From IMG/VR virus record IMGVR_UViG_2880378312_000006: DNA of 64,000 nucleotides. One strand, written 5' to 3'. Made by a program: the position numbers. This document shows positions 12,001 to 18,000 of this stretch, piece by piece. Source of the DNA: a virus. Its lineage: Duplodnaviria; Heunggongvirae; Uroviricota; Caudoviricetes. Position 1 is the stretch's first letter, and the number at the start of each line of letters is the position of its first letter.

Positions 12001-15000
12001 GCCAGAGTCTATTCAGTGTCCAATTACACTAGAGAGACCCGAAGAAGGAGTGTTTGTCAAAAATTCAGATAGTTCGGCAGTATGCTGCTTATTTGATTTT
12101 GATGCATTTTCTCGTTTAGCTAGTGAAGGCTCATATCATCCACTGACCCGAGAACCAATAACGGCATCAATGATTATAAGTCCTGATAAATGTGTTTATG
12201 ATCCTATCAAGGGAAACTTCATTATAAAAGATAGTTAAAATATTTTTCTCTGAGAGAGTATTGGCTGTCAGTAATTTGTAAAAAAACGCCGCAGACATCC
12301 AGAATATAAGAAGGTGTCTGTGGTTGGCAGGTTTCAGATGACTTGAAGGCGTCTTTATGTAAATGCATTTTTCTGTGGAGATGTTGTCGGAAAATATTGG
12401 ATTAAAAACATAATCCAAGTCAAATAGTAAGTTTGTTTTTTTTGAGATTAGGTGTGTGTATTTAGAATTTTTATGATGTGTTTATTTTGTGGGGTATTTT
12501 AGAAAAAATATATTAATCCTTATTAATAATAGCTGCCATCCATTTCAGCTATTATTTTAAAATAAACAAGTTAAAGCTTAGACTCTTGTTTCTTGGATTA
12601 TATCAAAGATATCAACATGATTTGATGGATTATGATGTGGTAAGCCATTGCTTTCGATATCGATTACCACATCCTCTGGATTTGGATGCCGCTGTCCAAC
12701 AGGGATACCTTCTTCCATTGCGCGTATATCAGCACCTGTGGCATGTTCAATATCTGCTTTATTGGGGAAAATAGCTCCTTCTCTTGCGTGCCACCATATA
12801 CGAGGATAGTCAGTGAATCTAGCTACTTCAAACTCGGCCTTGTTTAAATCGGCAGCCCCCAGTGTCGCACCAGCCCACCATAAAATAGTGTCTGGCTTTA
12901 ATCCAGGGGTATTATACTGTATGGCATGCCCTGCTGCTTGCCCAACCATTGCACCGATATGAGGACTTAACATTGGATCTGTACTAGCAAATCTGGATAC
13001 TGCAAATCCCCCTAAAGCACCAAGCGCATTTGCGGCAGCATTGGTAAGAACGGCATATTTAGTATTAGGGTTATCTAAATCCCACTTGAAATGTGCGCCA
13101 AACTCCAGCCCTAGAGTTGCCTGTAATGGAGATGCACCATATTTAAAATCTGCTTCTCCCGGTCTGATAACCCACTCCTCCGTGTAATTTGCTTTCGGCC
13201 CATCAGGAGTAAGTGGTGTTTCTCCAACAAGCTTCCATCCATTTTCAGTTTTGACTATAGGAAGTTCTACACCATGATTACGAACCACTTGAGCTGTTAA
13301 TCCAAACCATGGTATTGGGTCTTTTGGCTCGGTGGTTACCGTCGAAGTAGTGGCTGATGTTCCAGTCGATGCAATAGTCGACACTGCAGTGGTTGATATA
13401 TTACTGTTGCTTAATGCATTTTTTAACGGGCCAGGAAGGTCTTTAAAATTAAAACCTATTTCATCATGCAGAGGGAATATCTGTAAAAAATAATTACCTG
13501 ATGTAGGATGAATATCTGGTTTTACAATGTTTAGCTGGACACCATATTTACCAGAGATGCCTGAAACGGAACTAGGTATCTCTAATGCCATTTGGGTAAC
13601 ATTGAATAAACCAAACATATCCAATGTTTTTTTTCCTATGGATCCTTCTTCAAGGTGAGGAGCTATATATTCGTCTAGCCCTGAGAGCAGACCTTTATCT
13701 TTTATCAAGCTCAGTAGAGCTGTTGTTTCACCGCATTCCGGTGCATGTTGCTGTATATCATCTGGAATATTAACAACAAATCCAGCTTGGCATCCTAGAG
13801 GTAATTCGGATTGCGGTATTTGTGTAGAGGGTATTTGTTCTGTTTGATGATGTTGATTGTTTTGTGAGGTGATTCCAGATTGTATGGTCGGTTGAATGTT
13901 CATAATAAATCCTTATTACATGTTTATATCCATTAATAATATCAATCCATTGATACTATTAGTGTCACATATCCGATGTGGACAGCTTTAATATATAACT
14001 GTTTGAATGCTTGATTGATGTGACTTAGATCTCAAAATTAAGTTGTTAAATTTACCAGTTTATCGCTTGAACACTTAAAATAAATTATAAATGTTTCTGT
14101 TATTGTTTTTTATAGTTTAAATTATTGTTGGTTGTATAAGCTGATTACATTTTTACTCTAAGTGTTATAAATATTTTATACTGATATTAGTCTTATTATA
14201 TATTTTTTTAATGAAAATGAGCATAAAACTAAGACATATAATGCTTGGCAGCTTTATGCTCTTCTGATTGGCTGTATGTTTGATGACAAAAAATTAGCGC
14301 AAGAGGACAAAAAATCACCTTGCGCTAATGCTCTGTCTCAGGTCACTAATCACATCTAACTCATTGATTAATTGTGACTCTAAATGTAGTGTTTTGTCGC
14401 GTTTTGCAGTCTATCATTTAATCAATTGTATAAATAACATAATGATTTTTAATGTGTTTTTGTGATTTTATCCTCCTTCTGACATGGAAGTTGTTCGTTC
14501 AAAAATCTTATTAAATATCAAGTTGTTAAATCTGGTAAGTCATTATTGGTCAAAATAAAATCATTATCCGATTTCAATTTTGTCCCACTCCCGCCCGCGA
14601 CTGTCCCTATAATGCGCCGCCATTGAATCAGATTTATGTCCAAGAAGACGTTGTGCAAACTTGTAGCCAATCTGGTTCCGATATAGCCTCGCGGACAGAC
14701 TACGTAGTTCATGAAATGTCGGTGGGTCTCCATCAAACGAGATCCCGGATGCATTTCGCGCCTTTGTTAAATACCGTGATACTGTGGCTGGAGAAAGTGG
14801 TTCGTGATAGGTTGATGCGATTATTGTTTCACTGCTGCTGGCCTCCCTGCATTTCTGTAGTGTATCAACCAGTGAGATGTCGAGTGCGTCAATGGTTAGA
14901 GCCAGCGGAATGGCAATTTTGGCTCCTGTTTTACTCTGTCCAATGTGAAGATGACCATCGTTTATGTCTGACCACTTCATTCTGCACAAATCGCCCACTC

Positions 15001-18000
15001 TCTGCCCTGTAACGACAGCTAAATCCATTGACAGCCTCAGCCAGATGGGGAGGTGCTCAGCAGCATGGTAAATAGCGACATACTCATTAGCTGTCAGCCT
15101 TGAGCGCCTTACTTCTGACTTTGCTGCACGGGTTGTTGTTACTGGATTCGTTGCCACATGCCCCTCGGCTATTGCCCCTCGAAAAACGTCAACAAGGGTT
15201 GACCTGATTACTCTTGCGGAAACCGCTTTACCTTCTGCGACGTAGGTGTTTAGCATTGCTGCCACCTCTTTCGTTGATATGTCAGTGAGCGGTTTGTCCG
15301 GCAATTTTCTTCGAATTGCCCTGATTTTGCTGGCGTAGTCGAGTAATGTTTTCGGCTTGCTCCCCCTCTAGCTGAGGATTGTTTCATATCGATCAAGCCA
15401 CGTATGAAGAGTGATTGAGTCAGTGCCTTTAACCCTGTCCAGCAATGATTCGTGCCCACTTTCGCTGAAAAGCTCAATGTTGGTGTGAATTCTACGAGCA
15501 ATGAAATGCCTCGTGGAAGGATGCAGTGATGATTTTAATCCTTTTGATATTATTAGGGTACCAGATCTTACTTACAACAAAGGATCTTTACAATGTGGAT
15601 GATTAGAGGCCTGTGAGCCTGTTTAGGATTCTGTGTAAATGCCTTTTCTTAAAAGTGACCGTCAAGACGGTCACCAAACTCGATAATAAAGCGGCTCATT
15701 GCCATTCGCCAGTCCCTTAACGGCATTGTCCATTTCTGTGACGCGGCCTGGATTGCCAGCCACACCACTTTTTTTACTGACTCGTCCGTCGGGAACACCT
15801 TGCGTTTCCTGATGGCATGCCGGATCACACTGTTCAGCGACTCGATGGCGTTCGTTGTGTAGATCACTTTGCGGATATCTGCCGGATAAGCGAAAAACGT
15901 CGCCAAGTTAGTCCAGTTTGACAGCTAGCACCGGCTTATCTGCGGATAGCGGCAGTCCCAGGCCGCAGCAAACGCTTCCAGTGCCTGCTGGCCTGCCTCT
16001 TCTGTGGGAGGCTAATCGCTTTCAGGTCGCGAGTGACGGCTTTGTATTCCTTCCATGACACGAAGCGCATGCTGTTGCGCACCATATGCACGATGCATAA
16101 CTGGATGCGGGCCTCCGGGAATTCTTTCAGGCCATACACACAGGCGATGAGGATATCGTTCAGACCGCGGTTTTTCAGTTCAGTCAGCACATTGAACCAG
16201 AAATTCGCCCCTTCATTTTCGGCCAGCCGCATCCCCAGGAGCTCTTTCTGACCTGCGATATTGATGCCCAGTGCTAGGAACATTTTTATGATAAAAAATT
16301 AGTGCAAGAAGACAAAGAATCGCCTTGCGCTAATGCTCTGAAACAGGTCACTAATATCATCTAAATAGTTGACTCATAGTGACAGCATGTGTTGTGTCTT
16401 GCAGTATTATATAGCCTATTATTTAGATTGAAGCCATCATAATCTATTGATGTTAATGGTTTTTTATTGTTTGTTGTTCGGCTTTTTATACTAATTTGAG
16501 CGAAACAAAAAGATAAAAAGTTGTTTTTCGGTAAGCGTACAGCGAGGGCCGTATTGACGGGGATGTGTTATTCAGCTGGCAGTGCTATGCGCCACGGAAG
16601 CAGTTCGCTGACCCGGTTGACCGGCCAGTCTGCTATGACGCCAAGCACATGGCGAAGGTAGCTTTCTGGATCCACGTCATTCAGTTTGCACGTCCCGATC
16701 AGGCTGTACAGTAGCGCTCCCCGCTCACCACCATGATCAGAGCCGAAGAACAGGAAGTTTTTACGACCCAGACTGACCGCCCGCAGGGCATTTTCAGCGA
16801 TGTTGTTGTCGATTTCCACCCAGCCATCGTTCGCATAGTACGTCAGTGCCGGCCACTGGTTAAGTGCGTACGCGAACGCCTTCGCCAACTCTGAGTGTCG
16901 CGACAGGGTCTTCATCTTTTCACGCAACCAGCTTTCCAGGGATTTCAACAACGGTTTCGTTTTTCGCTGACGTTCAGCAAGCCGCTGCTCTGCCGGCATT
17001 CCCCTTATATCCGCCTCTATGGCGTACAACTGACCGATCTGCTCCAGGGCTTCTTCCGTCAGTGCTGACGGGATGCGGACGTGCACATCGTGGATCTTTC
17101 GGCGGGCATGAGCCCAGCAGGCAGCTTCCGTTATCCCACCATTGCGATACAGCTCGTTGAACCCGGCGTACGCATCCGCTTGCAGCACACCGCTGAAGCA
17201 GGCAAGATGAGTCTGCGGATGGATGCCTTTTCTGTCCGGGCTGTAAGCGAACCACACTGCAGGTGCCAACGCTGACCCTGCATTGCGGTCATCACGAACA
17301 TACGCCCACAACCGCCCGGTCTTCGTCTTCTTATTACCCGGCAGCAGTACCTGGACCGGGGTATCATCGGCATGGAGTTTGCCGTCAGTCATGACATAGC
17401 CATGAAGCGCCTCTTCCAGCGGAGACAGCAGCCGGCAGCATGCATCCACCCAGCCCGACAGCAGTGAACGCCTCAGCTCCACACCTTGCCGGCCGTATAT
17501 TTCTGACTGGCGATACAGCGGGGTGTGCTCTGCATACTTCGAGGTCAGCACGCGGGCCAGCAGCCCCGGTCCGGCGATACCCCGCTCGATGGGCCGCGAA
17601 GGTGCAGGTGCCTGCACGATGGCATCGCACTGAGTACAGGCATGTTTTTCCCGTACCGTCCGGATAACCCGGAAGGCGCTACGCATCAACTCCAGCTGTT
17701 CGGCGGTATCCTCGCCCAGATAGCTCAGTGAACCGCCGCAGTTCGGGCAGCACGGCGCCGCAGGCAACAGTCGCTTTTCGTCACGGGGTAGTGATTCAGG
17801 GAACGGCTTACGGGTGCGGGTCTGACGCAACGGACGCTGTACTGCCGGGTCATACACCCTACCAGTCAGCGTATCGCTCTCTTTCTGAAGCCGGTTCAGA
17901 TCGGCTTCCATTTGTGCGATACGGCGGGAGACTTTTTCGGAACGACTGCCGAAGTTCATCCGGCGGAGTTTATCCAGCTGCGCCTGCAGATGGTCTATTT

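What the first reader, a model, noticed from the sequence alone, without database searches (positions are those of the whole stretch)
14564..15560. Lambda-type integrase inactivated by an amber codon and loss of its N-terminus
The C-terminal 246 residues are lambda Int-like to the last residue, but the reading frame hits TAG at 15368-15370 (context ...LDRYETILS / stop / RGSKPKTL...) and further upstream contains a TAA with no in-frame Met. Together with the att scars this argues that the element it served is fixed in place, although it could still be mobilised in trans by the intact integrase at 25087-26217 if the att sites are compatible.
Basis: seen in the sequence. Interest (0 to 1): 0.4.

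Follow-up and report, generated by a model that had tools for sequence, protein, structure and literature searches.

The report
Fossil HK022-type integrase beside nleA
This is a long-dead, already annotated integrase pseudogene left over from an nleA-carrying phage that merged into the E. coli O157:H7 prophage Sp9; it has no bearing on whether Sp9 can move, because Sp9 uses a different, intact integrase.

Summary
The amber codon (15368-15370, minus strand) and the lambda-Int-like C-terminus are real. The gene is closer to HK022 Int (86-88% aa) than to lambda Int (70%). All six catalytic residues are kept.

Integrase DNA ends at 15490. Bases 15491-15602 are the last 36 codons of nleF on the other strand. 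They were joined there by a 1674-bp deletion, shared by 57 of 5426 complete E. coli genomes, that removed nleH1-2 and most of nleF. This is the known lineage-II O157:H7 trait.

In other O157:H7 and some other E. coli strains the same pseudogene already carries the amber (GAG>TAG), a 1-nt frameshift and a 5' truncation. It is therefore old, not a read error.

Directly downstream lies an uninterrupted attP plus sib/tI hairpin, colinear with HK022 attP. Its 11-bp core, TGACATGGAAG, is the crossover site of nleA prophages inserted in yfaT in other strains.

So int' is a captured phage end inside the effector locus of Sp9/CP-933P, which sits in ompW. Sp9 has its own intact int-xis, and it excises in strain Sakai. 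The integrase at 25087-26217 is that ompW type (36% identical to int') and belongs to a second, tandem prophage.

The finding is ordinary and already annotated.

The parts
14564..15490 (-). int' : HK022-type tyrosine integrase pseudogene. It covers codons equivalent to lambda/HK022 Int 49-356 plus the stop.
   Evidence: RefSeq annotates it as 'tyrosine-type recombinase/integrase; internal stop; incomplete; missing N-terminus' in strains 7784 and FRIK2455.
15368..15370 (-). Amber codon TAG at the position of lambda Int residue 89. Intact relatives have GAG (Glu) there, so the change is G>T.
   Evidence: The TAG is also present in L002, L013 and the more divergent L012.
14564..15256 (-). Residual 230-codon ATG ORF (MLNTY...), preceded by GAGG 8 nt upstream. 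It equals lambda Int residues 127-356.
   Evidence: Gene callers predict a 230-aa product (P0002, 99% identical). Expression was not tested.
14341..14563 (-). Complete attP (P' arm, core, P arm) immediately downstream of the int' stop, colinear with HK022 attP.
   Evidence: alignment; for comparison with attL and attR of real lysogens.
14480..14490 (+). 11-bp core TGACATGGAAG, shared by this attP, by attL of yfaT prophages (L009, L014) and by attR of the nleA prophage at yfaT (L011).
14281..14340 (-). sib/tI-type hairpin followed by a U run, at the outer edge of the P arm as in lambda and HK022.
   Evidence: near-identical to HK022.: -29.6 kcal/mol, z = -6.06.
12578..13903 (-). nleA, the type III effector cargo of the phage that int' and this attP belonged to.
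15490..15491 (.). Junction of a 1674-bp deletion relative to typical O157:H7. It removed int' codons ~22-48, a tail-fibre 3' fragment, nleH1-2 and most of nleF.
   Evidence: The junction is present in 57 of 5426 complete genomes.
15491..15602 (+). nleF 3' remnant: the last 36 codons and the stop (...NKGSLQCG*).
15649..16283 (-). IS256-family transposase fragment.
16284..16530 (+). Fossil lambda-type attR, first part: degraded sib/tI hairpin, P arm, core GCTTTTTATACTAA (16481-16494), B' arm and the start of bacterial flank.
16531..18972 (-). ISEc8 (2442 bp) with 8-bp target duplication GTTTTTCG (16523-16530 and 18973-18980), inserted in the bacterial flank of the fossil attR.
   Evidence: It is absent at this spot in strain 493/89.
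18981..19011 (+). Fossil lambda-type attR, second part: continuation of the flank homologous to the E. coli chromosome next to ybhB.
25087..26217 (-). Intact ompW-type integrase of a second, tandem prophage. It is not cognate to int'.

Best explanation
int' is the non-functional remnant of the integrase of a lambdoid, nleA-carrying phage. That phage used an HK022-type Int and an attP with core TGACATGGAAG to insert into the 3' end of yfaT; a related prophage in FORC 064 sits at the ibsA locus.

The right-hand part of that phage, in free-phage order (tail fibre genes, nleG', nleA, sib/tI, attP, 3' 1 kb of int), was recombined into an ompW-integrating prophage, Sp9/CP-933P ('PPompW'). It landed upstream of an existing effector module of tail-fibre fragment, nleH1-2 and nleF.

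From then on int' was useless cargo and decayed:
- loss of roughly the first 21 codons, the arm-binding domain, at the junction with the tail-fibre fragment;
- a 1-nt frameshift near codon 48;
- GAG>TAG at codon 89.

In the lineage of this window a further 1674-bp deletion ran from int' codon ~48 into nleF.

Sp9's integration and excision depend on its own int-xis at the other end of the prophage and on the ompW att sites, not on int'.

Shown: identity, lesions, deletion endpoints, intact attP, use of the same core in real lysogens, and the intact ompW-type integrase.

Inferred: the order and mechanism of the recombination that captured the module. It was either homologous crossover in the tail genes plus an illegitimate join, or Campbell-type insertion of a whole phage followed by deletion.
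For: Identity of the gene:
- Pfam and PDB matches.
- 86-88% aa identity to HK022, Stx1a-phage and yfaT-prophage integrases.

Shared lesions:
- The same TAG, the same 1-nt deletion and the same first retained int bases are present in O157:H7 ATCC 35150, 2014C-3050 and 2013C-4974.
- The 1991-bp query running from the 5' part of nleA through attP to int' is covered at 80% or more in 445 genomes.

Deletion:
- Window 11001-15490 and 15491-19819 equal L002 2702-7191 and 8866-13194 at 100% identity.

attP:
- It is colinear with HK022 attP from the int stop to the tI hairpin.
- The core is shared with attL in L009 and L014 and with attR in L011.
- L011 together with L014 shows a 16-kb nleA prophage at yfaT with an intact 356-aa Int that has GAG at the amber position.
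- FORC 064 shows tfa, DUF1076, nleA-like gene, sib and P arm ending at the core next to ibsA.

Ancestral junction:
- A 140-bp copy of the tfa 3' end, 92% identical to window 11480-11618, abuts int' in typical O157:H7.

Sp9's own machinery:
- Its int-xis are intact next to ompW.
- Sp9 excision and packaging in Sakai are reported in PMC2669165.

Decay and constraint:
- On the int' branch there are 38 synonymous against 28 non-synonymous codon changes. Most divergence therefore predates inactivation.
- The copies differ by frame-breaking indels and mostly non-synonymous changes.
Against: - The capture event is reconstructed, not observed, and no intermediate genome with the full-length donor phage inside Sp9 was found.
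- No intact integrase more than 90% identical to int' turned up among the clusters searched, so the exact donor lineage is unknown. The yfaT and ibsA prophages used as models carry integrases only about 87% identical.
- The left end of the Sp9-like prophage of this particular strain lies outside the window. Its integrase was read in FRIK2455, which matches window 10001-29872 at 99.9%.
- Excision was shown for strain Sakai, not for a lineage-II strain.
Confidence: 0.85

Rival explanations
1. One reading: int' was the working integrase of the element it sits in. Its inactivation, together with att scars, has locked that element in the chromosome, although the intact integrase at 25087-26217 might still mobilise it in trans.
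For: - The gene is dead.
- The region contains several att-like relics.
- An intact integrase lies about 10 kb away.
Against: - The attP beside int' is whole, not split into attL and attR.
- The surrounding prophage is bounded by ompW att sites and has its own intact int-xis.
- Sp9 excises and is packaged in Sakai.
- The nearby integrase is 36% identical to int' and 99% identical to Sp9's own.
Confidence: 0.04
2. The amber codon and the truncation are assembly or sequencing artefacts, and the gene is intact in the real genome.
For: A single-base change could in principle be an error.
Against: - The stretch recurs at 99% identity or more in over 400 independently assembled complete genomes.
- The TAG was read directly in L002, L013 and the 95.8%-identical L012.
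- The deletion junction is shared by 57 genomes.
- RefSeq annotates the internal stop.
Confidence: 0.01
3. The remnant is not inert. The 230-aa C-terminal ORF (14564-15256), which keeps the whole catalytic domain, is expressed and acts on core-type sites or interferes with related integrases. Alternatively, the intact attP is kept because it serves as a landing site for incoming yfaT-type phages.
For: - All six catalytic residues are retained.
- A GAGG lies 8 nt upstream of an in-frame ATG.
- The sequence is identical between the window and L013.
- The attP core and tI hairpin are intact.
- Att sites inside prophages are used in STEC (PMC8112680).
Against: - No promoter evidence: the promoter scan found no more sites than shuffled sequence gives.
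- Copies in other lineages carry further frame-breaking indels and mostly non-synonymous changes.
- The plasmid copy is cut down to 653 bp.
- The identity among O157 copies is explained by recent common ancestry.
- No genome was found with a prophage inserted at this internal attP (rows).
- O157 genomes showed no second close homologue that could supply cognate Int (one place per record in the O157:H7 rows).
Confidence: 0.06

Closest known systems
Bacteriophage HK022 integrase and attP (lambda Int family tyrosine recombinases)
   Same: - 86% aa identity over codons 49-356.
- Same domain order after the arm-binding domain, with all catalytic residues.
- The downstream DNA is colinear with HK022 attP (P' arm-type sites, core, P arm) and with the tI/sib hairpin.
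   Different: - It lacks codons 1-48 and has an amber at codon 89.
- The core differs: the window has CAACTTCCATGTCAGAAGGAGG where HK022 has CAACTTATTCACCTAAAGGATG. The integration specificity is therefore different, yfaT rather than the HK022 attB.
Bacteriophage lambda integrase
   Same: Ungapped alignment to residues 49-355, E = 7e-139. It ends at the same position as lambda Int (...WDKIEI-K/G).
   Different: Only 70% identical, with a different core and target. Lambda's own type of att is represented nearby by a separate fossil attR at 16284-16530 and 18981-19011.
Exchangeable effector locus of prophage Sp9 / CP-933P / PPompW in EHEC O157:H7 and other STEC
   Same: - Same position downstream of the tail fibre genes.
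- Same gene set: nleA, nleH1-2, nleF, nleG and espM1, with IS elements.
- The 21-bp attB-in-PP_1 is present at 24595-24615.
- Degraded int genes are marked in the published maps.
   Different: This window is the lineage-II form, lacking nleH1-2 and nleF. It carries two PPompW-type prophages in tandem.
Disrupted integrases of Sakai prophages Sp3, Sp11 and Sp12
   Same: They are integrase genes inactivated in a resident O157 prophage (PMC2669165).
   Different: Those are each prophage's own integrase at its attL end, so their loss does affect mobility. int' is a second, foreign integrase remnant at the opposite end of a prophage whose own integrase is intact.

Membership tests
Tyrosine recombinase, lambda Int family | C-terminal catalytic domain (Pfam PF00589) with R-K-H-R-H-Y | tested here: met
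   PF00589 at E = 2.4e-38. R212, K235, H308, R311, H333 and Y342 equivalents are all present.
Tyrosine recombinase, lambda Int family | Core-binding (SAM-like / central) domain | tested here: met
   PF02899 and PF22022 match when read through the amber. The domain is interrupted by the TAG at codon 89.
Tyrosine recombinase, lambda Int family | N-terminal arm-type DNA-binding domain (PF09003, residues 1-63) | tested here: not met
   Integrase DNA starts at codon 49 in the window. Intact relatives carry PF09003. Even the ancestral O157 form lacks roughly the first 21 codons.
Tyrosine recombinase, lambda Int family | Uninterrupted reading frame with a start codon | tested here: not met
   Amber at 15368-15370 and no start codon. 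There is a frameshift in the ancestral form. It is therefore a member by descent only, that is, a pseudogene.
Lambda-type attP | Located directly 3' of int, with P' arm, core and P arm colinear with a characterised attP | tested here: met
   Alignment with HK022 attP from the int stop to tI.
Lambda-type attP | The core sequence is the crossover point in real lysogens (shared by attP, attL and attR) | tested here: met
   TGACATGGAAG is shared with L009 and L014 attL and with L011 attR. Homology switches from phage to yfaT sequence exactly there.
Lambda-type attP | Functional binding of Int, IHF, Xis and Fis, and recombination activity | not testable with these tools
   This needs in vitro or in vivo recombination assays.
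Pseudogene (as against a sequencing error or a recent mutant) | The same disabling lesions are shared by independent genomes and lineages | tested here: met
Pseudogene (as against a sequencing error or a recent mutant) | Relaxed constraint after inactivation | tested here: inconclusive
   Copies differ by frame-breaking indels and by 23 non-synonymous against 16 synonymous changes (plasmid copy) or 2 against 0 (L012). The numbers are small.
Integrase responsible for mobility of the host prophage (Sp9/PPompW) | Adjacent to attL of the prophage and cognate to its att sites | tested here: not met
   int' lies near the right end, beside an unsplit attP of another specificity. The cognate ompW-type int-xis lies at the left end.

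The most novel reading that the evidence does not exclude
The intact yfaT-type attP stranded inside Sp9 (core 14480-14490), possibly together with a translated 230-aa catalytic fragment of Int, is still recombinationally competent. When a cognate HK022-type Int is supplied by an incoming nleA-type phage, it could do one of two things. It could act as an extra landing site, giving a prophage-in-prophage that stacks more effector genes. Or it could recombine with the chromosomal yfaT attB and rearrange the chromosome between ompW and yfaT.
Probability: 0.06. Interest if true: 0.45.

Novelty: already known. Interest (0 to 1): 0.12.

Why it matters
It matters little on its own. The pseudogene is annotated in hundreds of RefSeq O157:H7 genomes and lies in one of the best-studied effector loci.

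Its value is as a marker of history. Together with the unsplit attP and the neighbouring fossil lambda-type attR that still carries ybhB-side chromosomal DNA, it shows that the Sp9 effector locus was built by stacking the right ends of phages with different integration specificities.

It also gives the exact breakpoints of the lineage-II loss of nleH1-2 and nleF.

For mobility predictions the practical point is that this dead integrase must not be read as evidence that Sp9 is immobile.

Tried and rejected
1. I first thought that window 15500-15570, read in another minus-strand frame (DLVP**YQKD*NHHC..PRG), resembled the lambda Int N-terminus (DLPPNLYIRNNGYYCYRDPRTG). I rejected this. The DNA is 100% identical to the nleF 3' end of typical O157:H7. 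The genuine residual N-terminal codons (..TDPRTKKEFGLGRDRRVAISEA) exist only in genomes without the deletion.
2. A sequencing error was rejected.
3. I asked whether the window is strain FRIK2455. It matches at 99.9% only up to 29872 and then differs in the second prophage, so FRIK2455 was used only as the nearest proxy for the left end of Sp9.
4. ARAGORN and Rfam on 13800-19600 found nothing. The tRNA-Ser-like stretch at about 19043-19138 therefore remains an unverified att-type relic.
Folding showed it.
6. A search for an intact integrase of the same lineage among 5.8 billion protein clusters found none above 88-89% identity. Only 193-249-aa fragments were closer or similar.
7. A full-text search for the Sakai locus tag ECs1813 found no paper.
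Full report
**What the window is**

The region matches complete E. coli O157:H7 chromosomes at 100% identity. It is the right arm of the lambdoid prophage Sp9/CP-933P, called 'PPompW' in PMC8112680, which is inserted in ompW.

The gene order around the finding is:
- tail fibre genes;
- a frameshifted DUF1076 (nleG-like) gene;
- nleA (12578-13903, minus strand);
- the integrase remnant;
- IS fragments and ISEc8;
- nleG and espM1;
- an ompW 3' fragment.

A second ompW-type prophage follows, starting with the integrase at 25087-26217. Two PPompW genomes in tandem have been described for four O157:H7 strains of the FRIK2069 type.

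**Check of the observation**

On the minus strand one frame reads from IHTNIELF... to ...WDKIEIG, with its stop at 14564-14566. It has one in-frame TAG at 15368-15370. The 246-aa TTG ORF is 14564-15304.

The match to the integrase family is far beyond chance:
- Pfam Phage_integrase, E = 2.4e-38.
- An ungapped alignment to lambda Int residues 49-355, E = 7e-139.
- All six catalytic residues present.

The protein is closer to HK022 Int and to integrases of Stx1a phages (86-87% aa) than to lambda Int (70%).

The amber corresponds to lambda residue 89. HK022, an Stx1a phage and two intact E. coli prophage integrases all have GAG there, so the lesion is G>T.

**Where the N-terminus went**

The reported interval overshoots the integrase. 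Window 11001-15490 equals O157:H7 ATCC 35150 (L002) 2702-7191, and window 15491-19819 equals L002 8866-13194, both at 100% identity. The window therefore carries a clean 1674-bp deletion.

That deletion removed:
- the 5'-most 68 bases of the pseudogene as annotated in typical O157:H7 (995 against 927 bp);
- a tail-fibre 3' fragment;
- nleH1-2;
- all but the last 36 codons of nleF.

Bases 15491-15602 on the plus strand read ...NKGSLQCG*.

The junction is present in 57 of 5426 complete genomes. This fits the absence of nleH1-2 and nleF in lineage II O157:H7 found by comparative hybridisation (PMC1890555).

**The pseudogene is old**

In genomes without the deletion the remnant already has three lesions:
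- loss of about the first 21 codons where it abuts a 140-bp copy of the tfa 3' end (92% identical to window 11480-11618);
- a 1-nt deletion near codon 48;
- the same TAG.

These are shared by O157:H7 ATCC 35150, strain 2014C-3050 and the more divergent 2013C-4974, which has an extra 1-nt deletion and an IS3 element at the 5' edge. A 66-kb plasmid carries nleA next to a still shorter, frameshifted copy. The query running from nleA through to int' is covered at 80% or more in 445 genomes.

On the int' branch there are 38 synonymous and 28 non-synonymous codon changes relative to three intact relatives. Most of the 13% divergence therefore arose while the gene was still functional.

No intact protein above about 88% identity was found among 5.8 billion clusters. 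The 99% hit is a 230-aa fragment called from the pseudogene.

**What lies next to it**

From the int' stop downward the DNA is colinear with HK022 attP. It has P' arm-type sites, a core region, a P arm and the sib/tI hairpin. That hairpin folds at -29.6 kcal/mol, z = -6.

The core differs from HK022's. Three real lysogens define it:
- An intact 357-aa integrase prophage next to yfaT (a DUF1175 gene downstream of gyrA-yfaA) matches the window from 14476 upward (L009).
- An nleA prophage in strain 2013C-3250 matches the window from nleA up to 14490 and then continues into a yfaT 3' fragment (L011).
- Its left end has yfaT followed by an intact 356-aa Int and Xis (L014).

All share TGACATGGAAG, and homology switches between phage and host exactly there. 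In FORC 064 the same right end (tfa, intact DUF1076, nleA-like gene, sib, P arm) ends at the core next to ibsA.

So the window holds an unsplit attP. This is the arrangement of a free phage genome, not of a prophage integrated through that site.

**Interpretation**

int' and its attP are the tail end of an nleA phage that was recombined into an ompW-integrating prophage. The tfa duplicate at the ancestral junction fits two routes:
- a homologous exchange in the tail genes plus an illegitimate join between int and tfa; or
- Campbell-type insertion of the whole donor phage by tail-gene homology, followed by a deletion from int to the second tfa.

This step is inferred.

Sp9's own integrase and excisionase sit at its other end next to ompW. 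They are intact in FRIK2455, which is 99.9% identical to window 10001-29872. In strain Sakai, Sp9 is scored as having intact integration and excision functions. It circularises spontaneously by attL x attR recombination and its DNA is packaged (PMC2669165).

The integrase at 25087-26217 is 36% identical to int' and 99% identical to Sp9's own.

**A second fossil nearby**

Window 16284-16425 repeats the P arm and tI region at 77% identity. It continues into a lambda-type core, GCTTTTTATACTAA, then the B' arm TTTGAGCGAAAC, then about 60 bp homologous to the E. coli chromosome beside ybhB. Overall it is 80% identical to the attR of a lambda lysogen.

ISEc8 (16531-18972, with an 8-bp target duplication) splits that flank. 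ISEc8 is absent at this spot in strain 493/89.

The nleH1-2/nleF module therefore came from the right end of a prophage that had been inserted at the lambda attB and took host DNA with it. They mark successive captures of phage ends, not the boundaries of an element served by int'.

**Comparison with what is known, and novelty**

The gene is a member of the lambda Int family by descent. It fails the tests for an arm-binding domain and for an open frame. RefSeq already labels it 'tyrosine-type recombinase/integrase; internal stop; incomplete'.

Published maps of PPompW effector loci mark degraded int genes, and the nleH1-2/nleF loss has been known since 2007. I did not find a text description of the unsplit yfaT-type attP or of the attR with ybhB flank. 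Both are small additions to an established picture of effector loci as phage-end mosaics.

**Residual possibility**

A 230-codon ATG ORF with a GAGG 8 nt upstream keeps the whole catalytic domain, and the attP is intact. Activity of either cannot be excluded without experiments.

Against it:
- other copies are decaying;
- no insertion at this site was seen;
- the O157:H7 rows show one place per record, so no second close homologue that could supply cognate Int was seen.

**Verdict**

The interpretation of mobility is wrong. The feature is ordinary and already annotated.

Noticed in passing
window 16284-16530 and 18981-19011: Fossil lambda-type attR (degraded tI hairpin, P arm, core GCTTTTTATACTAA, B' arm) that still carries about 60 bp homologous to the E. 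coli chromosome next to ybhB. Bacterial flank DNA sits inside a prophage effector locus, pointing to capture of a prophage end by aberrant excision or recombination.
   Followed up: yes
window 15490|15491: A 1674-bp deletion relative to typical O157:H7 removes nleH1-2 and all but 36 codons of nleF. It is shared by 57 of 5426 complete genomes. It gives exact breakpoints, one of them inside the integrase pseudogene, for the lineage-II absence of these effectors.
   Followed up: yes
window 16531-18972: Intact ISEc8 (2442 bp) with 8-bp target duplication GTTTTTCG. It is absent at this site in strain 493/89, so it is a later insertion.
   Followed up: yes
window ~19043-19138: A 96-nt stretch about 80% identical to E. 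coli tRNA-Ser genes. ARAGORN and Rfam do not call it. It may be another att-type relic of a tRNA-targeting element.
   Followed up: partly
window 24595-24615: Exact copy of the 21-bp 'attB-in-PP_1' (GTCATGCAGTTAAAGTGGCGG) described as a landing site for Stx2a and other phages inside PPompW. It is unoccupied here.
   Followed up: partly
window 24916-26217 and onward to about 64000: A second ompW-type lambdoid prophage follows in tandem (ompW 3' fragment, int 25087-26217, xis, exo, ... tail genes). It matches FRIK2455 only up to 29872 and has a different early region after that.
   Followed up: partly
window 5676-9148 and 11664-12238: The tail tip gene J is frameshifted (two overlapping ORFs), and the DUF1076 (nleG-like) gene upstream of nleA is frameshifted. 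An intact version of that DUF1076 gene exists in FORC 064 (L015 1251-1826).
   Followed up: no
L010 (plasmid NZ_CP065606.1) 2256-4926: nleA with the same attP and a shorter integrase remnant also occurs on a 66-kb plasmid, flanked by IS elements. The nleA-attP-int' block has therefore moved as a unit outside prophages.
   Followed up: partly
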